Positions 8,662 through 32,544 of a DNA stretch of 36,440 bases are shown one piece after another. The position numbers and the translations under genes are program-made. The stretch lies in the IMG/VR virus record IMGVR_UViG_2778261172_000005, positions 1-36,440 of that record. One strand, given 5' to 3'. The stretch is from a virus (taxonomy: Duplodnaviria > Heunggongvirae > Uroviricota > Caudoviricetes). Every line of letters begins with the position of its first letter. The first letter of the stretch is position 1. The notes under the pieces were generated by a model. The model ran no database searches, was not told where the DNA came from, and saw only the letters and a list, made by a program, of their open reading frames with translations.

Positions 8662-9579
8662 TCACTCCATTTCTCTTTTGGCTAATTCTTCCCATTCGTC
8701 GATTGAGTTATTATAAGGAAATACCTCTTTAACTATGAAAGGAATGTAGCTTTCTTCAGCATTGTGATGTATTTCATTACTGATATTACTTGTGATTCCG
8801 AATTTTACGTCAGGATCGTTTTCAGAGAAATGTATATGAAAAGGTTGTTGACCTAAAGCCTGTCTAATTTTATTTGCTTGTTCTGATGGAAGGACTTTAA
8901 GTAGCTGTTTGAATGTTTTTTTATTAAAGTCTAGAGAAATGGCCATATCAATATCTCCGGGTATCATAGATATGCACGTGTATGACCGTTCGCTCAATCG
9001 ACTAATAAATTTAGTATTTATAGCAGGGGCACTAAAAGAACCATCTTTAACCAAACCCATTTTTCGAATATGAATTCCAAAATCAGGTGCATAACTCAAG
9101 ACATCCGGATTGGCTTTAATATCTGGATTTAATATCCTAAATAATTTTTCCCAGTAATTACCAATGTCTTTCAAAGAAAATCTGAGTATTGGGTGGAGTT
9201 CCCGTATACTATATAGAACAAATTCATTCCCATTGCACAATGCATACATTTCTGCCCTTATTTCTGGATGTATAGCATAACTATAGGCTTGCTCAACGTG
9301 CATGCTTTTGGTTATTTTTTCATTAGGGGCCTTTGCATCAAGAATCCAATATGGTCGGTCGTTAGAAAGAAAAACATAATCCGGTACTATTGAAATCTTT
9401 CTTGGCTGTGAACCTATTGAGACAAATGGATGTGTAAGCGTTTTGCTCCTGATTACACGACTATCTCCCGATGCTTTATAACCAAGAGCTTTAATAATTG
9501 GTAAAATCAACTCTTCTCTGACTGAATCCTCTTTAAATTCATCTGAGCTTAGTAAGTTAAAATCAAAATCATCAAACAT
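8662..9579 (-). CDS. cargo protein with N-terminal PD-(D/E)xK restriction-endonuclease-like domain (HsdR-N/Mrr-like), 305 aa; candidate defence nuclease
   Basis: Motifs E-x...PDYVF...WILDAK...EQAYSYA in the order typical of the PD-(D/E)xK fold; AT-rich gene at the FI-G position where P2 carries Z/fun; own terminator; ATG preceded by a G-run SD. Confidence 0.6.
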   Translation of the reverse strand: MFDDFDFNLLSSDEFKEDSVREELILPIIKALGYKASGDSRVIRSKTLTHPFVSIGSQPRKISIVPDYVFLSNDRPYWILDAKAPNEKITKSMHVEQAYSYAIHPEIRAEMYALCNGNEFVLYSIRELHPILRFSLKDIGNYWEKLFRILNPDIKANPDVLSYAPDFGIHIRKMGLVKDGSFSAPAINTKFISRLSERSYTCISMIPGDIDMAISLDFNKKTFKQLLKVLPSEQANKIRQALGQQPFHIHFSENDPDVKFGITSNISNEIHHNAEESYIPFIVKEVFPYNNSIDEWEELAKREME

Positions 9580-10130: not shown

Positions 10131-10859
10131 CTACAATTTAATTTTTAGTCTTTTAGGAGCATCGTATAGAGTAGATATTTTTATTTCGGCTTTACAACCC
10201 TTATCCTCAATTGCCAATGTGTATGCCTGCCTTAAGTTTTTTTCCATTCTTGGGTCAAATAGCACGGTGTCTAATAGTTCAACTGGATTAATTTCAAACT
10301 GGAAAATATCATTATCGACACTATTATCATCACCAGAATATATTAAACGAACTTCGCTTTCGTGTTCAAACTCCACGCGTTTGTATAAAAGCGATTCAGC
10401 AATGCCTGAGCCATTAGTGTTGAATAAATCAATTGACAAGAGTTTTTCCGAAAGAGTATCCTCCGGAAGATAAGAAACCTTGCCTATAAAACACCTTAAA
10501 TTATGGTAAGTCGGCTCTGCTTTTTGAAGTGCGGCTAATAGTTTTCTTGGTGTGGTTGAAACTCTTACACCATTTTTATCATGGGAATATATCCGCCACA
10601 TTGCATCGGTTTCACTATGAAATGTCCAGCATTGCCCATAAACAGAATCTCTTGCGGCAACTGTTCCTGTTTGACCATCAGAAGTTTCAATTACACAATT
10701 TAATAAAGCGTTCTCAAAAGGGTCATCCCATTTTCTTGGTTTTACTAAAGTTAATTTTTTTTCTTCAAGCAATTGAAGAAAACGGTGTATTGGCATAATT
10801 CTATAAATAGGTATATCCAATGATTCATCTGTTAAATTAATATAGTTATTATAGCTCAT
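10131..10859 (-). CDS. DUF2971-like cargo protein, 242 aa; candidate single-gene defence or abortive-infection factor
   Basis: N-terminal IYRIMPIHRFLQLLEEKKL...PRKWDDPFE matches my recollection of the DUF2971 signature (YR.P..RF...L...L...P..F.DP.E); strongly AT-rich; flanked by direct repeats. Confidence 0.5.
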   Translation of the reverse strand: MSYNNYINLTDESLDIPIYRIMPIHRFLQLLEEKKLTLVKPRKWDDPFENALLNCVIETSDGQTGTVAARDSVYGQCWTFHSETDAMWRIYSHDKNGVRVSTTPRKLLAALQKAEPTYHNLRCFIGKVSYLPEDTLSEKLLSIDLFNTNGSGIAESLLYKRVEFEHESEVRLIYSGDDNSVDNDIFQFEINPVELLDTVLFDPRMEKNLRQAYTLAIEDKGCKAEIKISTLYDAPKRLKIKL

Positions 10860-26975: not shown

Positions 26976-27521
26976 ATGATAAATATTAATGAAGAAATTA
27001 ATAATTCTTTCGATGAGTTTGATGAGGAGGATAAACAGCAAGCTTACTTATCTTTCTTTAAAAATAGTTTCCCTTTTTTACTTTGCCCAACTCTATTCAA
27101 ACGCAGTGAAGATCTCCCTCAATTAAATTGGGTGAAAGTAAAATATACTGAGCATGCGGCTCATACTTTCCCAAATCAACAGGGAGTATATATGTTTATG
27201 GTTGGTTTCGAAAGCACTAAGCTCCCCAATAATTCATATGTTATGTATGTAGGAAAGGCCGGCGATACTAATTCCAACAACACAATCTGCAAAAGGTTTA
27301 AAGATTACGTTAATCCATCTGGATTTAGAGACAGGCCCAGAGTTAAGAAACTCATTCAGCATTTTAGTGAGCATTTATATTATTACTATGCAACACTCCC
27401 AACAGGGCAATCCACAGCAGATGTTGAATCCACTTTAGCCGATATTTTCGCACCACCTTGTTGTCAACGAGATTTTTCAGCTAATGTGCGAAGCTTATTG
27501 AGAGGAGTTAGAATTATATGA
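26976..27521 (+). CDS. GIY-YIG-like nuclease-domain cargo protein, 181 aa; first gene of a two-gene operon at the old/tin position
   Basis: GVYMF...YVMYVGKAGD...RFKDY...E...N, arranged as in the GIY-YIG fold with a longer than usual spacer between the first two motifs; very AT-rich; stop overlaps the next ATG. Confidence 0.5.
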   Translation: MININEEINNSFDEFDEEDKQQAYLSFFKNSFPFLLCPTLFKRSEDLPQLNWVKVKYTEHAAHTFPNQQGVYMFMVGFESTKLPNNSYVMYVGKAGDTNSNNTICKRFKDYVNPSGFRDRPRVKKLIQHFSEHLYYYYATLPTGQSTADVESTLADIFAPPCCQRDFSANVRSLLRGVRII

Positions 27522-28657
27522 ATCAACGTTTAGTCCTTCCATGTTTGAGAGGCTATATGGGGAGCTGGATTACATATAGTTGCATGATGAGACTTTCAGA
27601 TGCATCCAATTTGATCGGGTTTGCTGAGGAACTCCATCAAATTGATAAATTGTCAGACAAAATACAACGTGAATTAAATAATGATAGGGCTGAAGAAATC
27701 TCTCATTATTTGGTTAGCAATGATGATCGCTTCTTTAACTCATTAGTTGTAGCTGTTTATGATGGCGATCCAAATTGGCATGAAATTGGAGGAATAACTC
27801 CAAACAATGAAGAAGCCTCTTTGCTTGATTTTCCTGAGTATGCAGGGAATTGCATTGGTTTTTTATCCATTACAAGAGATGAAAAATTTTTTGCACTTGA
27901 TGGACAACATCGCTTAGCTGGCATCAAAGCTGCTCTTAAAGTTAATAGCGATATTGCTGATGATCTAATTAGCGTTATTATTGTTGCTCATGCTAATACG
28001 CCAGAAGGTAAAGTAAGATCCAGAAGATTATTTACCACTTTAAATAAAAAGGCAAAATTAGTTAGTAAAGATACCATTATAGCTTTAGATGAGGATGATA
28101 TAGCAGCATGCATAACAAGACGTCTAATTGAGGCAGAGGATTTCATATACTTCAATGAAGATAACGTATCCTTTAACTCTGGTCCTGTTAGAGATAAAAC
28201 GAGCATCACATCTATTGTTAATATATATGATAATGTTCAGAAGTTAGTAGCATATAAATTAGGTGTTAAAATTACCGAGTTGGAAAGATACAAGTATAAA
28301 GATCATATTGACATATACAACTTCATTTCTAATTTTTATAGCTACACATTCGAAGGATGTGAAGAGTTAATCAAAGTAGCTAAAGGTGAACAACCTGCTG
28401 GATTTTATAGAAATTCCGAAACTGGTGGGCATATTTTGTTTAGACCTATTGGTTGGGATTTATATACAGATATAGTACTCTATGCCATGACTCATTTTAA
28501 TCATGACCTTAAAAAGGCAATTCAACACATCACCAAACACAATCTAAACATGTCTGGCTCTATTCTATCCAACAAAGTTTGGTCAACAAAACAAAAGAAA
28601 ATCCTTAAGATAAGTGCTAAAAACATAAAAGCAATACAAAAAAGTTTGTTATCATAA
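27518..28657 (+). CDS. DGQHR-domain (DndB/ParB-like) cargo protein, 379 aa; second gene of the operon
   Basis: Exact signature FFALDGQHRLAGIK preceded by a QR motif, as in the DGQHR/DndB family; AGGAG Shine-Dalgarno inside the end of the upstream gene; ATGA overlap; AT-rich. Confidence 0.6.
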   Translation: MNQRLVLPCLRGYMGSWITYSCMMRLSDASNLIGFAEELHQIDKLSDKIQRELNNDRAEEISHYLVSNDDRFFNSLVVAVYDGDPNWHEIGGITPNNEEASLLDFPEYAGNCIGFLSITRDEKFFALDGQHRLAGIKAALKVNSDIADDLISVIIVAHANTPEGKVRSRRLFTTLNKKAKLVSKDTIIALDEDDIAACITRRLIEAEDFIYFNEDNVSFNSGPVRDKTSITSIVNIYDNVQKLVAYKLGVKITELERYKYKDHIDIYNFISNFYSYTFEGCEELIKVAKGEQPAGFYRNSETGGHILFRPIGWDLYTDIVLYAMTHFNHDLKKAIQHITKHNLNMSGSILSNKVWSTKQKKILKISAKNIKAIQKSLLS

Positions 28658-28815: not shown

Positions 28816-28974
28816 TTATCCGGGCTTCACTTTTCGTCTCGTATATCCATACAGAATAAACGAGCCTCCGCTCTCATAATTACGGTGATTTTTAAGAAAC
28901 TCCGCGCGTTTCTTTCCTTCCAGCCCAAGGTCTAAATATTTTGTGTGCAGCTTTACCTCATGAATTTTTGCCAT
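28816..28974 (-). CDS. small hypothetical protein (52 aa) coupled to the end of gene A
   Basis: ATG overlaps the A stop codon (TAATG); no recognisable motif; start chosen inside the 64-aa ORF-track call. Confidence 0.35.
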   Translation of the reverse strand: MAKIHEVKLHTKYLDLGLEGKKRAEFLKNHRNYESGGSFILYGYTRRKVKPG

Positions 28975-31265
28975 TATGTCCACTCCATTACAGCTGAGAA
29001 TCCCGGCCACTCATCAGCGACCGGATACGTGAATTTTTTCCCGTCATAATTTACTGTTGCCCCACGCGCCAGCGCCTCAAGCTCCCATCGCTGCGGCCTG
29101 ATACCGTTCTGAGCAAGGTCAACGCGGATACGGGTAATTTGCGTTCGTTCCGACCGGGTCAGTCTGGCCGATGGCGCTATTTCATGTGGTTTTAACGGGC
29201 TTCCGTTTCTCTGCTGACGATTTGGTGTTCTCAGTTCGTGTTTTAATGCACCTCTGAGCGCCCTCACGACCTCTGGCTCATTCCATTCGATAACACCGTC
29301 ATCAACCAGATTAAGCACTGCTGCGGCGTGCTCAGAAGGCGTGGGAGCCGGTGACGAAGTATCACCGTCGGTAAGCTTTCCACAGTTATTGACAGGACTC
29401 CGAGGCGCGGCGATGCCGCTTTTTAAAGTCAAAGGCTCAACGACCGGAACTTTCGGCACAATGCGCCAGTCCGTCGTTCTGGTGATATGAATATGACGCG
29501 CGCCGAGATGCGGCGCGTAAATGCCGACCACTCTCTCGACTTCTTCCTCATACTCGTTAACGTCATCCGACGGGCTACGGGCGACCCTGACAGTCTGACA
29601 ATCGCGCGGGACATTTGCCCCGCCCTGCGCGCTGATATACAGCGCAAAATCGCCACTGTCTGCGGCAGCGCGTGCAGCCTCGACGCGTTCGTCAAACTCA
29701 TCAGCAATGCTGACGCCGCGAGGCAACTTACGTAGTTCACGGTAAGCCCCCATTGTCGGCAGGCCAACCGTTTTAAATTGCGGGATGCGCCACGTTGACG
29801 CCCATGCGGTAACAGCCGCAGCAGTGTCTTTCAGCGGCCTGCCGGTATCGTTATCGAGCTGACCATCCAGTGCATAGCCGTCGATGTTTTTTGAAATGTA
29901 TTTCGCGATATATCCCGCAGCACCGCCCCGGTTAAGGTGTTTTGCCTGAAAACGGTTTCGCGCAGCTCCTCTTTCGTCGCCATCCTCTTTGAGCGCATAG
30001 CGACGCATGATTTCGATAATCTGGTTACGCTGGCGTGGATTACAAAAAAGCATCATATGCCAGTGCGGCGTTCCGTCGTGGTGTGGCTCGACGACTCGCA
30101 AACCGTAGACCTGTAAATCATTATCCTTGAATGCCGTGCGCATCAGGCTCCAGATACGGCAGAGATAACGCTGCGCATCCTTCGGATTAAATGCCTCATC
30201 ATTCCAGCCGTGATTAAGCTGGACGGTTTTACTTTCGCCTTTTCCGACCTGACGTGTCGGATGATACTTTGACGGCGCGGTCAGCGTGATAAACATCCCC
30301 ACATCACCCTCTGCGGCGGCGTAACGCTCAATACCGGCAATGGTGTTCATCAGCTCCATCCGGCGAATTTCAGGATTAGAAATACTGCCCATCACCTTAC
30401 TGATAAGGTCGATGCGTTCGCCGGTTTCCCTGTTTTCAAGGTCACACGATTTAAGAAATTCCAGATTTGCCTGACGGCGCGTACGCACATCACGAATAGC
30501 ATGTTTACTGGCATAAGGTGAACGGTCTTTATTGACCTCCCCGACAGCAATCAGTAACGCCTCATGCCAGCGCATACGCTGGCCTTTAAGCTGATGAGTC
30601 CACCACTCATCGTTAAACAGACGGGCAATGGCAGAATATGCCTGCCTCGTGGTCATCTGCCCTTTACGGTATTTTTTCCAGTAGAGAGGGGAAATATTGA
30701 AAGCTCGTGCAGCGCCAGCAACATGACCATACAGGTGAGCCTGCGCCTCATCCGTAAACAGCGATTCTTTCTCGCCATGCGCATCCACCCAGGCATCGCT
30801 GAGTTCCTCATACATCATGAAAAGCTGCGATGAGATACGGGCGGCAAATTTTTTCAGCTCCTTGTCATTCATTCCCGGCAGGCGTGCATACTGGTCGCGC
30901 TCTGCCAGAAACAGCAACGACGCGTCGGTGTTCATTTCATGGCGCTGATTCACGCGCTCAATGCGCGGCCATAAACGACGCTGAAAAGTGGATGTGAGGA
31001 AATAAAACCCGTGTAGCGGACTTTTATTGCGCCGGATGTAGTCATAGCGTGAAGTAAACAGCGAGCGCAAAAAGTAAGGCAGGCGGTTAATCGTGGATAA
31101 AACACCTTGCACCTGACGCATCTCGTCACGTGTAAGGGTTCTTTCGCGCCCGACGGCCTCGCGTGGCGCGTTCCATGCATAAGCACCGGTAAACGCCTTA
31201 CCGGTGCCTGCAGCAAATGCTGACGGAGGTACGCAGGTGTATTGCTCCTGGAAAGAATGACTCAT
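28974..31265 (-). CDS. A: replication initiation protein A (rolling-circle nicking endonuclease, P2 gpA-like)
   Basis: 763-aa ORF; sequence recognised; position next to cos and the hotspot as in P2. Confidence 0.9.
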   Translation of the reverse strand: MSHSFQEQYTCVPPSAFAAGTGKAFTGAYAWNAPREAVGRERTLTRDEMRQVQGVLSTINRLPYFLRSLFTSRYDYIRRNKSPLHGFYFLTSTFQRRLWPRIERVNQRHEMNTDASLLFLAERDQYARLPGMNDKELKKFAARISSQLFMMYEELSDAWVDAHGEKESLFTDEAQAHLYGHVAGAARAFNISPLYWKKYRKGQMTTRQAYSAIARLFNDEWWTHQLKGQRMRWHEALLIAVGEVNKDRSPYASKHAIRDVRTRRQANLEFLKSCDLENRETGERIDLISKVMGSISNPEIRRMELMNTIAGIERYAAAEGDVGMFITLTAPSKYHPTRQVGKGESKTVQLNHGWNDEAFNPKDAQRYLCRIWSLMRTAFKDNDLQVYGLRVVEPHHDGTPHWHMMLFCNPRQRNQIIEIMRRYALKEDGDERGAARNRFQAKHLNRGGAAGYIAKYISKNIDGYALDGQLDNDTGRPLKDTAAAVTAWASTWRIPQFKTVGLPTMGAYRELRKLPRGVSIADEFDERVEAARAAADSGDFALYISAQGGANVPRDCQTVRVARSPSDDVNEYEEEVERVVGIYAPHLGARHIHITRTTDWRIVPKVPVVEPLTLKSGIAAPRSPVNNCGKLTDGDTSSPAPTPSEHAAAVLNLVDDGVIEWNEPEVVRALRGALKHELRTPNRQQRNGSPLKPHEIAPSARLTRSERTQITRIRVDLAQNGIRPQRWELEALARGATVNYDGKKFTYPVADEWPGFSAVMEWT

Positions 31266-32269
31266 TCACATACACCGGCATAGACACTACTGCAAACGGC
31301 TTTATCATTCGCCGAAGCCAGTAAATCAAACTGAGTACCCCCACGCGTTGTCATTGTCCAGTCATGGTAGGTTTCTATTCCGTATGCCTCGACTGTTACA
31401 ATCTCAATACGACGTTCTGCGCGTAGCGGATCATGTGTGGATGGGAAAAAAGTGGAATTTCCCCGACGGGAGCACGACGCAACCAGTCGTTCCCATTCAG
31501 CAACCCGTTTTATTTCCTCCGGCCACCGGCGAAAAATTTCTGCCAGTTCAGATTTACGGACATGAATACATGGCATACAACCAACACGGCCACACCCCTG
31601 CTGATATAACGGATTTGGCTTAATGTCATGTCTTCTGGCTATTGCAAATACATCTTCATGCTTCCAGTGCAAAATCGGGCGATATACATGCAATCCGGGG
31701 GTGTTGTCTGCATCCTCTTCCCAGACAGGTAAAGCAGCGCGTGATGGCGATTCCTGAGCACGCACTCCCTGCCAGCTAATCACTTCCTCAAATTCATTGA
31801 GTAAAGGCAATATTACCTGAGAACGCACGGGCTCATGTTTCAGTTCAAATGTGCAAAATCTGGCTTTGGTTGATGGGAAACGCCCCTTCCACAGACACAA
31901 ATCAAGAAACGGGATACCCGTTGGTTTGAGAATTTCCAGCGCACAACTGATGCGCTGGTGCGCTTCTTCTTCCGACATTCCACAATCGTTAACCAACAAA
32001 TCAGGCCATTTGGTCTGGATAAACTTGCGCTTTGATTCAATCCGGCAGGAAAAATCAGCTCTGACTCTTTTAATTGGGCCAAGCCGTTTTTCCAGATAAT
32101 CCAGATATTTCATTGTCTGTGGATGTTCATGTCCCGTATCAGCAAAAACCGGCAATATGGGTACATTTTCTTCAATAGCGACAAGCCACTGAGCAAGGCT
32201 GTCCTTTCCACCTGAAACAAAAATAACATTGATGGTATTTTCAGTATGGCAACGAGCATCAGTAATCAT
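31262..32269 (-). CDS. PAPS-reductase-like PP-loop protein (DndC-like fold), 335 aa
   Basis: PP-loop motif VSGGKDS near the N-terminus and a cysteine cluster (GCGRVGCMPC); stop overlaps the A start (ATGA); absent from canonical P2. Confidence 0.7.
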   Translation of the reverse strand: MITDARCHTENTINVIFVSGGKDSLAQWLVAIEENVPILPVFADTGHEHPQTMKYLDYLEKRLGPIKRVRADFSCRIESKRKFIQTKWPDLLVNDCGMSEEEAHQRISCALEILKPTGIPFLDLCLWKGRFPSTKARFCTFELKHEPVRSQVILPLLNEFEEVISWQGVRAQESPSRAALPVWEEDADNTPGLHVYRPILHWKHEDVFAIARRHDIKPNPLYQQGCGRVGCMPCIHVRKSELAEIFRRWPEEIKRVAEWERLVASCSRRGNSTFFPSTHDPLRAERRIEIVTVEAYGIETYHDWTMTTRGGTQFDLLASANDKAVCSSVYAGVCE

Positions 32270-32544
32270 TCAGACGCTCCTCTGGAGAACGCCTCTGAAC
32301 AACGCTTGCTGAGTTGCTCAACCTGCGCGTTTAAATCAGCAAAAGACTTTGCGCTTCCGGTCAGAATATCGTGATGCATCAGGCCGGAAACGAGCTGGCT
32401 TAATTTCGGGTAATAACCAACCACCGCCAGCCATTCCTGACCGGCGTTTTTACCGCTTTCCGCTCTCTTTTTCTCGTGGAGAATAAACTGAAAGCTGTCA
32501 CTGGTAACGACATAACGTTCGCCAATTTCAATACGAATACTCAT
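32266..32544 (-). CDS. hypothetical early-region protein (92 aa)
   Basis: ORF in the B-A early operon at the position of the P2 orf80-83 cluster; start and stop overlap its neighbours. Confidence 0.5.
   Translation of the reverse strand: MSIRIEIGERYVVTSDSFQFILHEKKRAESGKNAGQEWLAVVGYYPKLSQLVSGLMHHDILTGSAKSFADLNAQVEQLSKRCSEAFSRGASE

What the first reader, a model, noticed from the sequence alone, without database searches (positions are those of the whole stretch)
31262..32269. PAPS-reductase-like PP-loop protein coupled to replication gene A; second Dnd-associated fold in the same prophage
Seen in sequence: a 335-aa gene with an SGGKDS PP-loop and a C-terminal cysteine cluster, its stop overlapping the A start. 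Established knowledge: PAPS-reductase-like PP-loop enzymes include DndC of DNA phosphorothioation systems, while DGQHR proteins (like the cargo protein at 27518..28657) include DndB. Inference, speculative: the phage may carry a nucleic-acid modification or anti-restriction function in its early operon, possibly connected to the DGQHR/GIY-YIG module about 3 kb away on the other side of gene A.
Basis: inference. Interest (0 to 1): 0.5.

Follow-up and report, generated by a model that had tools for sequence, protein, structure and literature searches.

The report
Phage SspD-like sulfur enzyme gene
This prophage gene is the counterpart of phage 186 orf84, labelled a sulfate-assimilation enzyme but actually closest to the ATP-using enzymes that put sulfur into the DNA backbone, and comparative genomics ties it to the DndB-like gene pair carried 3 kb away.

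Summary
A 335-aa ORF (31262..32269, minus strand) has a canonical SGGKDS PP-loop and conserved cysteines, and its stop overlaps the start of gene A (ATGA). It is the orthologue of phage 186 orf84 (76% identity). The 186 record calls orf84 non-essential and translationally coupled to A.

It is not a CysH. It scores far below the CysH and DndC family cut-offs, and CysH has a degenerate loop where this protein has SGGKDS. Its closest characterised relative is SspD, the ATP pyrophosphatase of Ssp DNA phosphorothioation. It forms a large phage-specific clade under strong purifying selection.

In E. coli it is a clean 1-kb accessory insertion, present in 44 of 1,615 genomes that carry this early region. 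In related phages the same slot holds Dam or Dcm methylases.

The speculative link to the cargo gains real support. Relatives of the 181-aa + DGQHR pair sit directly downstream of a ~280-aa SspD-like gene in 28 of 76 genomes (sspABCD confirmed in one locus), and near dndC clusters in 16 more. All three P2/186-like prophage lineages carrying the pair also carry a PAPS-like gene, against base rates of 3-8%.

Most likely it is a DNA-directed, phosphorothioation-type sulfur-transfer or anti-restriction enzyme. No chemistry was shown.

The parts
31262..32269 (-). Orthologue of phage 186 orf84: a 335-aa phage-clade SspD/DndC-like PP-loop enzyme. Features: SGGKDS at 19-24, D44-T-G-x-E48, C139/K144, R170-x-x-E-S174, C231-x-x-C234, and C326/C334-E335 at the C-terminus.
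31262..31265 (-). ATGA overlap between the stop of the PAPS-like gene and the start of gene A. This is a translational coupling junction, and A has no Shine-Dalgarno sequence of its own.
   Evidence: the 186 RefSeq note says translation to the end of orf84 appears necessary for translation of A
32266..32269 (-). ATGA overlap between the stop of the DUF5405 gene (P2 orf83 / 186 orf83 equivalent) and the start of the PAPS-like gene. An AGAGGAG Shine-Dalgarno lies just upstream.
28974..31265 (-). Replication gene A (rolling-circle nickase, Phage_GPA). Its first 11 codons (MSHSFQEQYTC) co-vary with the presence of the PAPS-like gene. Prophages without the gene start MAVKASGRF.
32266..32544 (-). 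DUF5405 early gene upstream. Its last ~5 codons differ between prophages with and without the PAPS-like gene, which marks the left edge of the ~1-kb cassette.
26976..27521 (+). 181-aa partner of the DGQHR protein, with a GIY-YIG-like motif pattern. It overlaps the DGQHR gene by 4 nt and is conserved with it as a two-gene unit.
27518..28657 (+). DGQHR/DndB-family protein (379 aa) in the portal/A cargo hotspot. Its relatives lie directly downstream of sspD or near dndBCDE.

Best explanation
The gene is the orf84-type accessory early gene of P2/186-like phages. It encodes a phage-specific relative of SspD and DndC, the ATP pyrophosphatases of DNA-backbone phosphorothioation.

What is shown: it keeps a canonical ATP-PPase loop. 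It keeps three invariant cysteines that align with those of SspD, and its CxxC pair also aligns with the Fe-S CxxC ligands of APS reductases. It has a conserved C-terminal cysteine pair and is under strong purifying selection. It is made early, and the replication nickase A is translated by coupling to it. It sits in a slot that related phages fill with orphan Dam or Dcm methylases.

What is inferred: it uses ATP to activate a substrate, takes sulfur from the host cysteine desulfurase (IscS), and acts on replicating phage DNA. Alternatively it acts on the host's phosphorothioation machinery. Either way the phage would pass, or interface with, phosphorothioation-based and other restriction systems.

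Also inferred: in this prophage it probably works with the 181-aa + DGQHR pair in the neighbouring hotspot. That pair is elsewhere an accessory of Ssp and Dnd modification operons. The phage would then carry a reduced, split phosphorothioation-type module.
For: Identity:
- 76% identical to 186 Orf84 and 82% to Yersinia phage P37.
- The 186 record describes orf84 as non-essential and coupled to A.

Not CysH:
- NCBIfam CysH 67 bits against a cut-off of 154; DndC 21 bits against 290.
- SGGKDS aligns to the degenerate SFGIQA / SNMADA loop of CysH and APS reductase.

Nearest relative is SspD:
- PADLOC SspD 74.5 bits, BrxP 45, DndC 29.
- hhalign of the family against SspD gives probability 99.85%, E 7e-31, 203 columns including the PP-loop, the RWCTxxLK cysteine and CxxC. 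Against DndC it gives E 6e-22.
- Family-HMM scores: SspD-like median 86 bits, DndC median 51 bits.

Constraint and family size:
- Invariant residues in 52 diverse members.
- dN/dS about 0.04-0.08 in the two comparisons where dS was measurable.
- 308 clusters at 50% identity with E below 1e-30.

Accessory cassette:
- Present in 44 of 5,426 E. coli genomes, against 1,615 that carry the flanking early region. The difference is a clean ~1,020-nt indel.

Slot logic:
- Dam sits upstream of A in a Klebsiella phage, Dam + Dcm in Salmonella SW3, and Dam + PAPS in a Pantoea prophage.
- A methylase overlaps the PAPS-like gene in phiE125 and Agrobacterium phage Rivra.
- Methylase or Mom genes make up 12 of 131 ORFs within two genes of the homologue, against 3 of 150 further away, p = 0.014.

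Link to the cargo:
- The pair and a PAPS-like gene occur together in three P2/186-like lineages. Cargo identity is 77-83%, but A is 36-62% and the PAPS-like protein 30-63%.
- Base rates are 2.7% and 7.7%, giving a joint chance of about 1.6e-4.
- In a lambdoid contig a PAPS-like gene lies about 150 nt from the pair.
- In GTDB species genomes, 28 of 76 pairs lie directly after a ~280-aa SspD-like gene, 16 lie near dndC clusters, and 60 of 76 have some PAPS-fold gene within 10 kb. PADLOC confirmed sspA, sspB, sspC and sspD in the one locus checked (L281).

Precedent: a PAPS-domain::Dam fusion region in a Vibrio phage confers resistance to Dnd (bioRxiv 10.1101/2021.05.05.442762).
Against: - No chemistry was tested. 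The Fe-S cluster, the sulfur transfer and the DNA substrate are all inferred.
- The phage gene is solitary. No SspB, SspC, DndD or DndE relative was seen among 131 flanking ORFs in diverse phages, nor in the cargo ORFs of this window that were scanned. Those partners are required for known phosphorothioation.
- The Vibrio anti-Dnd protein probably belongs to the shorter 'core-only' phage PAPS class, not to this full-length family.
- The cargo link is not obligatory. None of 158 viral-contig loci fetched around PAPS-like genes (within ~5 kb) holds the pair. Three lambdoid lineages and two chromosomal islands carry the pair with no PAPS-fold gene within 10 kb.
- The base-rate calculation assumes three independent acquisitions.
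- The methylase enrichment is modest and rests on crude ORF calls.
Confidence: 0.5

Rival explanations
1. Anti-defence by interference rather than modification. The solitary SspD/DndC-like protein acts as a decoy or dominant-negative subunit. It would bind host IscS/SspA or the host Dnd/Ssp complex, or the restriction partners, and so blunt phosphorothioation-dependent restriction without chemically modifying phage DNA.
For: The gene lacks the partner genes needed for known phosphorothioation. SspD forms a complex with SspA (PMC7188994). A phage PAPS-domain region confers Dnd resistance. PAPS reductases occur in Aca-regulated putative anti-defence operons (PMC13551039).
Against: All catalytic-type residues are invariant across a very diverse family (PP-loop, DTGxE, RxxES, three cysteines plus the C-terminal cysteines). 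A pure decoy would not need that. The family also occurs in hosts from many genera, where a matching Dnd or Ssp target is not guaranteed.
Confidence: 0.2
2. RNA-directed PP-loop thiolase. The enzyme thiolates host or phage tRNA or another RNA, as the [4Fe-4S] enzymes TtuA, TtcA and NcsA do, to tune translation or to protect tRNAs.
Against: Profile similarity is far stronger to SspD and DndC than to tRNA thiolases. The genomic company is DNA methylases, replication genes and the phosphorothioation-associated DGQHR pair, not tRNA genes.
Confidence: 0.1
3. Metabolic moron. It is a CysH-type PAPS/APS reductase that boosts sulfate assimilation in the infected cell or lysogen, as most genome papers annotate it.
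For: The Pfam PAPS_reduct hit and the 'cysH' labels in records. The best PDB neighbours are APS/PAPS reductases. The literature proposes this role (PMC2920897, PMC9144972).
Against: It scores below half the CysH family cut-off. It has a canonical ATP-PPase loop where sulfonucleotide reductases have a degenerate one. The ECGLH tail is absent. It has an extra ~40-aa insert and its own C-terminal domain. It sits in the early lytic replication operon, which a lysogen would be expected to repress (inferred from 186). It shares its slot with DNA methylases.
Confidence: 0.05
4. The ORF matters mainly as a translated leader that delivers ribosomes to gene A. Its protein product would have little function of its own.
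For: The ATGA overlap, the lack of a Shine-Dalgarno sequence for A, and the 186 note that translation to the end of orf84 appears necessary for translation of A.
Against: In the sampled prophages that lack the gene, the short DUF5405 gene directly abuts A and so would do the same job. dN/dS of 0.04-0.08 and invariant catalytic residues show selection on the protein. Homologues occur in phages without any gene A.
Confidence: 0.05

Closest known systems
Phage 186 Orf84 (CP84) and its homologues in P2/186-like phages (PHROG 424)
   Same: 76% identical over the full length. Same position immediately upstream of gene A, with the same overlapping stop/start coupling. Same DUF5405 gene upstream.
   Different: Here the gene sits in a P2-type backbone, whose A protein is only 37% identical to 186 A. 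In 186 the function is recorded as unknown and non-essential, so orthology gives no mechanism.
SspD, the ATP pyrophosphatase of the SspABCD single-strand DNA phosphorothioation system
   Same: Best profile match (PADLOC 74.5 bits; hhalign probability 99.85%, E 7e-31 over 203 columns). Shared features are SGGKDS, DTGxE, the C-T-x-x-L-K cysteine, CxxC, the helices that follow, and a cysteine-bearing C-terminal tail. In bacteria a ~280-aa SspD-like gene is directly followed by relatives of this prophage's cargo pair.
   Different: A genuine SspD scores 457 bits on the same model, against 74.5 here. The phage protein has an extra ~40-aa helical insert and a different ~95-aa C-terminal domain ending in CSSxYGLCE rather than CxxCHK. 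It has no SspA, SspB or SspC beside it.
DndC, the [4Fe-4S] ATP pyrophosphatase of DndABCDE phosphorothioation
   Same: PAPS-reductase fold with a true PP-loop. hhalign E 6e-22.
   Different: TIGR03183 scores 21 bits against a cut-off of 290. DndC is about 450-600 aa. There are no DndD or DndE neighbours.
CysH / APS reductases (sulfonucleotide reductases)
   Different: Sulfonucleotide reductases have a degenerate PP-loop and the ECGLH motif. This protein fails the curated cut-offs and only about half of it superposes.
Vibrio phage PAPS-domain::Dam fusion that counters Dnd (Piel et al. 2022)
   Same: A phage-borne PAPS-reductase-fold domain linked to a DNA methylase, with an anti-phosphorothioation-defence phenotype.
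   Different: That domain is short (residues 4-175) and fused to Dam. It likely belongs to the 'core-only' phage class that matches only residues 15-235 of this protein at about 26% identity.

Membership tests
Phage 186 orf84 family (PHROG 424) | Full-length sequence similarity to Orf84 / the PHROG 424 profile | tested here: met
   76% identity to 186 Orf84 over residues 2-335. phrog_424 E 7e-86 covering residues 1-334.
Phage 186 orf84 family (PHROG 424) | Position immediately upstream of replication gene A, with overlapping stop and start | tested here: met
   ATGA overlap at 31262-31265. The same arrangement is annotated in 186. 62 of the 80 closest viral loci have an A homologue downstream.
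CysH / PAPS-APS reductase (sulfate assimilation) | Score above the curated family cut-offs (NF002537, TIGR00434, TIGR02055, TIGR02057) | tested here: not met
   67 bits against 154, 47 against 165, 53 against 235, and 40 against 254.
CysH / PAPS-APS reductase (sulfate assimilation) | Degenerate PP-loop (no ATP hydrolysis) and a C-terminal ECGLH catalytic motif | tested here: not met
   The query has canonical SGGKDS where CysH/APR have SFGIQA / SNMADA. The C-terminus is ...CSSVYAGVCE, not ECGLH.
SspD (Ssp phosphorothioation) | Strong match to the SspD profile over its full length | tested here: not met
   74.5 bits over profile positions 73-216 of 277, whereas a genuine SspD scores 457 bits over 1-277. 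It is a relative, not an orthologue.
SspD (Ssp phosphorothioation) | Encoded in an operon with sspB (nickase) and sspC (ATPase) | tested here: not met
   No SspB/DUF4007 or SspC/BrxC-like gene was seen in the ORFs of this window that were scanned, or among 131 ORFs flanking diverse phage homologues.
SspD (Ssp phosphorothioation) | PP-loop, the conserved C-T-x-x-L-K cysteine and the CxxC motif | tested here: met
   All three align column for column in hhalign and are invariant in the phage family.
DndC (Dnd phosphorothioation) | Score above the TIGR03183 cut-off, and dndD/dndE neighbours | tested here: not met
   21 bits against 290. No DndD or DndE nearby.
DNA phosphorothioation enzyme (functional class) | ATP pyrophosphatase activity, an Fe-S cluster, and sulfur incorporated into DNA | not testable with these tools
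   Needs biochemistry and LC-MS/MS of phage DNA.
PT-associated DGQHR accessory pair (cargo 26976..28657) | DGQHR protein with its small partner, encoded next to a phosphorothioation modification operon or another PAPS-fold gene | tested here: met
   76 of 80 relatives have the partner directly upstream. 28 of those 76 lie directly downstream of a ~280-aa SspD-like gene, 16 lie near dndC clusters, and 60 of 76 have a PAPS-fold gene within 10 kb (sspABCD confirmed by PADLOC in L281). Here the PAPS-like gene is 2.6 kb away.
GIY-YIG nuclease (181-aa partner) | Profile or fold match to the GIY-YIG/URI superfamily | tested here: inconclusive
   Invariant G70, Y72, Y91, G93, R107 and E151 fit the motif pattern. 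There is no Pfam, NCBIfam, PADLOC or PDB profile hit, and the fold was not modelled.

The most novel reading that the evidence does not exclude
P2/186-like and some lambdoid phages carry a reduced, split phosphorothioation-type system. A solitary SspD-like enzyme, made together with the replication nickase A, marks replicating phage DNA using host IscS. The nick or single strand made by A would stand in for SspB. The GIY-YIG-like + DGQHR pair in the adjacent hotspot reads or regulates that mark, for example to exclude unmarked competitor DNA. This would be the first phage-encoded DNA-backbone sulfur modification, and a minimal two-module phosphorothioation system.
Probability: 0.15. Interest if true: 0.85.

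Novelty: new variant of a known kind. Interest (0 to 1): 0.55.

Why it matters
Hundreds of phage genomes label this family 'PAPS reductase / CysH' and discuss it as a sulfur-metabolism moron. The evidence here says it is instead a phage branch of the SspD/DndC enzymes of DNA phosphorothioation. It sits where related phages keep anti-restriction methylases.

If it modifies DNA or disarms phosphorothioation-based defences, it adds a new class of phage counter-defence. It would also offer a one-gene handle on a chemistry that otherwise needs four or five proteins.

The census also shows that a small-protein + DGQHR pair is a frequent accessory of Ssp and Dnd modification operons, and PADLOC 2.0 has no Ssp-component model that matches it. 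The same pair rides in phage defence hotspots, preferentially with the phage SspD-like gene. That makes a genetic interaction directly testable in E. coli with a P2-like prophage.

Tried and rejected
- **Housekeeping CysH:** rejected on the curated cut-offs, the PP-loop and the domain architecture.
- **QueC / 7-deazaguanine route:** only weak PP-loop-level hits to QueC.
- **Fused domains in longer family members:** Pfam found only PAPS_reduct. The extra length is an internal insert.
- **AlphaFold database search:** the afdb50 library was unavailable. The viral structure library (BFVD) returned only partial matches to other phage 'PAPS reductases'.
- **Geometry of the cysteine site:** model coordinates could not be read in the sandbox, so the Fe-S inference rests on alignments.
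- **Literature on 186 orf84:** nothing in the held library. One search on 'SspD' was swamped by unrelated acronyms.
- **Simple hitch-hiking of the cargo with A and the PAPS-like gene:** rejected, because cargo proteins are 77-83% identical while A is 36-62% and the PAPS-like protein 30-63%.
- **SspB/SspC-like genes elsewhere in the window:** the second hotspot holds unrelated cargo.
- **Not assessable:** the Klebsiella P2-like prophage that carries the pair in the tail hotspot, because its A region lies outside the fetched locus.
Full report
**1. What is there**

The ORF at 31262..32269 (minus strand) encodes 335 aa with SGGKDS at residues 19-24. Its TGA stop overlaps the ATG of replication gene A (28974..31265) as ATGA. 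The upstream DUF5405 gene overlaps its own start in the same way, so both junctions read GAATGA. A strong Shine-Dalgarno sequence (AGAGGAG) precedes this ORF and none precedes A.

Pfam gives PAPS_reduct at E 5e-35, and PHROG 424 covers the whole protein at E 7e-86. The window is a P2-like prophage, 100% identical over the tested 4.6 kb to E. coli JNEC-KY180.

**2. It is a known gene**

The protein is 76% identical to phage 186 Orf84 and 82% identical to the homologue in Yersinia phage P37. The 186 RefSeq record annotates orf84 as 'unknown function; not essential. translation to end of orf84 appears necessary for translation of A protein'.

**3. It is an accessory cassette**

- The gene occurs in 44 of 5,426 complete E. 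coli genomes: 30 at 95% identity or more and 14 at about 79%.
- Its flanks occur in 1,615 genomes at 95-99% identity. In the sampled hits without the gene, DUF5405 abuts A directly.
- The matched span there is 1,381 nt instead of 2,401 nt, a clean ~1,020-nt difference.
- The cassette edges lie in the last ~5 codons of DUF5405 and the first 11 codons of A (MSHSFQEQYTC with the gene, MAVKASGRF without). tblastn of A against phage genomes confirms this: alignments start at residue 1 only in phages that carry the gene.
- Among 78 viral contigs whose A is about 90% identical to 186-type A, only 6 have a PAPS-like gene upstream.

**4. It is not CysH**

- It scores far below the curated cut-offs for CysH and APS reductase (67 bits against 154, and lower for the others). 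It also fails DndC (21 bits against 290).
- Where sulfonucleotide reductases have a degenerate loop (SFGIQA, SNMADA), this protein has the canonical ATP-pyrophosphatase loop.
- A helical insert (about residues 86-125) and the C-terminal ~95 residues have no solved counterpart.

**5. Family anatomy**

The family is large. It has 5,826 clusters at 90% identity with E at or below 1e-5, and 308 clusters at 50% identity with E at or below 1e-30.

In 52 diverse members (39-57% identity) the following are invariant or nearly so:

- the PP-loop;
- D44-T-G-x-E48;
- C139 and K144;
- R170-x-x-E-S;
- N-P-L-Y;
- R-V-G-C231-x-P-C234;
- K239;
- W304, T307 and GG310-311;
- C326 and the terminal C334-E335.

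True residue numbers are alignment numbers plus one, because I trimmed the start codon by mistake.

The CxxC aligns with the Fe-S CxxC of the M. tuberculosis and P. aeruginosa APS reductases. dN/dS against 186 and another homologue is 0.04-0.08. The protein itself, not only its translation, is under selection.

**6. Nearest characterised relatives**

- Among defence-system profiles the best hit is SspD (74.5 bits), then BrxP (45) and DndC (29).
- I collected genuine SspD and DndC sequences from bacterial loci (see section 8) and ran profile-profile comparison. The phage family against SspD gives probability 99.85%, E 7e-31 and 203 aligned columns. These span the PP-loop, the cysteine of RWCTxxLK, CxxC and the following helices.
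- Against DndC the result is E 6e-22. SspD against DndC is weaker than either.
- With the phage-family HMM, SspD-like proteins score a median of 86 bits and DndC 51. CysH chains in the PDB score 49-57.
- A genuine SspD scores 457 bits on the PADLOC model. The phage protein is therefore a sister clade, not an SspD orthologue.
- Published work describes SspD as an ATP pyrophosphatase that binds the cysteine desulfurase SspA and is the likely sulfur acceptor. SspB supplies the nick (PMC7188994).

**7. Genomic company in phages**

The slot just upstream of A holds different genes in different phages:

- Dam in Klebsiella phage ST437-OXA245phi4.1;
- Dam, a small ORF and Dcm in Salmonella SW3;
- nothing in P2 and ENT90;
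- Dam followed by the PAPS-like gene in a Pantoea prophage.

In unrelated temperate phages the homologue overlaps a DNA methylase. Examples are phiE125 (methylase-PAPS-ParB-like) and Agrobacterium phage Rivra (methylase-PAPS-methylase). In Parlo and Stenotrophomonas S1 it lies two genes from one.

In 40 non-redundant diverse viral loci, methylase or Mom domains make up 12 of 131 ORFs within two genes of the homologue. Further away the figure is 3 of 150, Fisher p = 0.014. No SspB, SspC, DndD or DndE relative appears beside the phage gene. It is solitary.

**8. The cargo link**

The 181-aa + DGQHR pair (26976..28657) is in only 2 of 5,426 E. coli genomes. Both are the same prophage lineage and both carry the PAPS-like gene. 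At least 28 E. coli genomes have this PAPS allele without the pair.

The pair itself is a conserved two-gene unit in many mobile elements.

| Contexts of close relatives of the pair (66% identity or more) | PAPS-fold gene nearby? |
|---|---|
| This E. coli P2-like prophage | Phage PAPS-like gene coupled to A |
| Serratia 186-like prophage | Phage PAPS-like gene coupled to A |
| Pantoea 186-like prophage | Phage PAPS-like gene coupled to A |
| Lambdoid viral contig (L173) | Family member (36% identity, all motifs, ends CSSRYGLCE) about 150 nt away |
| Salmonella conjugative element | dnd genes (DndD/DndE) within about 10 kb |
| E. coli genomic island | dnd genes (DndD/DndE) within about 10 kb |
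| Pseudomonas island | dndBCDE within 2 kb |
| Three lambdoid lineages | None within 10 kb |
| Vibrio island and Shewanella island | None within 10 kb |
| Klebsiella P2-like prophage | Not assessable |

A more distant relative (38.5% identity) in a Salmonella Infantis conjugative element lies 2 kb from dndBCDE.

Across the three P2/186-like prophages the cargo proteins are 77-83% identical. A is only 36-62% identical and the PAPS-like proteins only 30-63%. The combination was therefore not inherited as one block. With base rates of 2.7% and 7.7%, three of three by chance is about 1.6e-4, if the acquisitions were independent.

In one genome per species (GTDB), 76 of 80 DGQHR relatives have the small partner directly upstream. 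Of those 76:

- 28 have a ~280-aa PAPS-like gene immediately upstream on the same strand;
- 16 have a dndC cluster within 10 kb;
- 16 have another PAPS-fold hit within 10 kb;
- 16 have none.

In the locus I checked (L281), PADLOC identifies the upstream genes as SspA, SspB, SspC and SspD (400, 367, 1,318 and 457 bits), with PbeA/PbeC convergent downstream. In a second locus (L280) the downstream gene is SspH. PADLOC 2.0 matches the DGQHR protein only as DndB and gives no hit for the partner.

A different DGQHR family was already shown by phylogenetic profiling to be strictly phosphorothioation-dependent (PMC3226654).

Conversely, none of 158 viral-contig loci fetched around PAPS-like genes (within ~5 kb) holds the pair. 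The dependence, if real, runs from the pair to the enzyme and not the other way.

**9. Interpretation**

Shown:
- identity with orf84;
- coupling to A;
- accessory status;
- non-CysH character;
- SspD/DndC-type active-site residues under purifying selection;
- a slot shared with anti-restriction methylases;
- statistical association of the neighbouring DGQHR pair with PAPS-fold phosphorothioation enzymes, including this phage clade.

Inferred:
- ATP-dependent activation, and sulfur relay from host IscS through an Fe-S/cysteine site;
- a DNA substrate during early replication;
- a role in evading or interfacing with phosphorothioation-based restriction;
- cooperation with the pair.

The only experimental precedent is a Vibrio phage PAPS-domain::Dam region that overcomes Dnd. 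It probably concerns the shorter 'core-only' class. Because the gene lacks the nickase and ATPase partners of known systems, a decoy or interference mechanism remains a serious rival. The common literature reading as a sulfate-assimilation moron is poorly supported.

**10. Verdict**

The fold-level interpretation is right, but the gene is an orthologue of a long-known gene of unknown function. The speculative cargo link is now supported by comparative genomics, though it is neither obligatory nor mechanistically resolved.

I rate it a new variant of a known kind: a solitary phage branch of SspD/DndC enzymes. Interest is moderate to high, because a cheap experiment in E. coli could reveal either a phage-made backbone modification or a new anti-defence mechanism.

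Noticed in passing
window 26976..28657; loci L280, L281, L290, L352 and others: The small-protein + DGQHR pair is a frequent accessory of Ssp and Dnd phosphorothioation operons. It often sits between a ~280-aa SspD-like gene and the restriction genes (SspH, PbeA/C). PADLOC 2.0 matches the DGQHR protein only as DndB and has no model for the partner.
   Followed up: yes
window 8662..9579 (-) and 10131..10859 (-): The second P2 cargo hotspot, between the tail-fibre genes and the tail sheath gene, holds two other cargo genes. One is a 305-aa protein with a weak, sub-threshold HSDR_N (restriction-nuclease N-terminal) match. The other is a 242-aa DUF2971 protein. They are probably another defence-type insert.
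   Followed up: partly
L181:14200-15519 (-) versus L001:3501-4505: The Serratia prophage has an A protein 92% identical to 186 A. Its upstream PAPS-like gene (439 aa, long-insert subclade) is only 37% identical to 186 Orf84. Different subclades of the family have therefore been swapped into the same slot.
   Followed up: partly
L166:9039-11341: In E. coli PEC209, an otherwise identical prophage has an IS21-family element (ISEc12, istA/istB) inserted between the DGQHR gene and gene A. The insertion truncates the small DUF3850 gene.
   Followed up: no
L272:3348-5080: The Pseudomonas island carries a second, diverged copy of the pair (179 aa + DndB-like protein) about 5 kb upstream of the first. 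Both lie beside one dndBCDE cluster and a GmrSD gene.
   Followed up: no
window 28816..29010 (-): A 64-aa ORF overlapping the 3' end region of gene A gives a sub-threshold DUF3850 (ASCH-like) match. RefSeq annotates the equivalent as a DUF3850 protein. It may be the remnant of the P2 orf91-position gene.
   Followed up: no
phage records (e.g. BcepB1A gp61, Acinetobacter phages, Vibrio phage 1.047.O): A separate, shorter 'core-only' class of phage PAPS-reductase-like proteins (about 190 aa) matches only residues 15-235 of this protein. It lacks the C-terminal domain. The experimentally tested anti-Dnd Vibrio protein probably belongs to it.
   Followed up: partly
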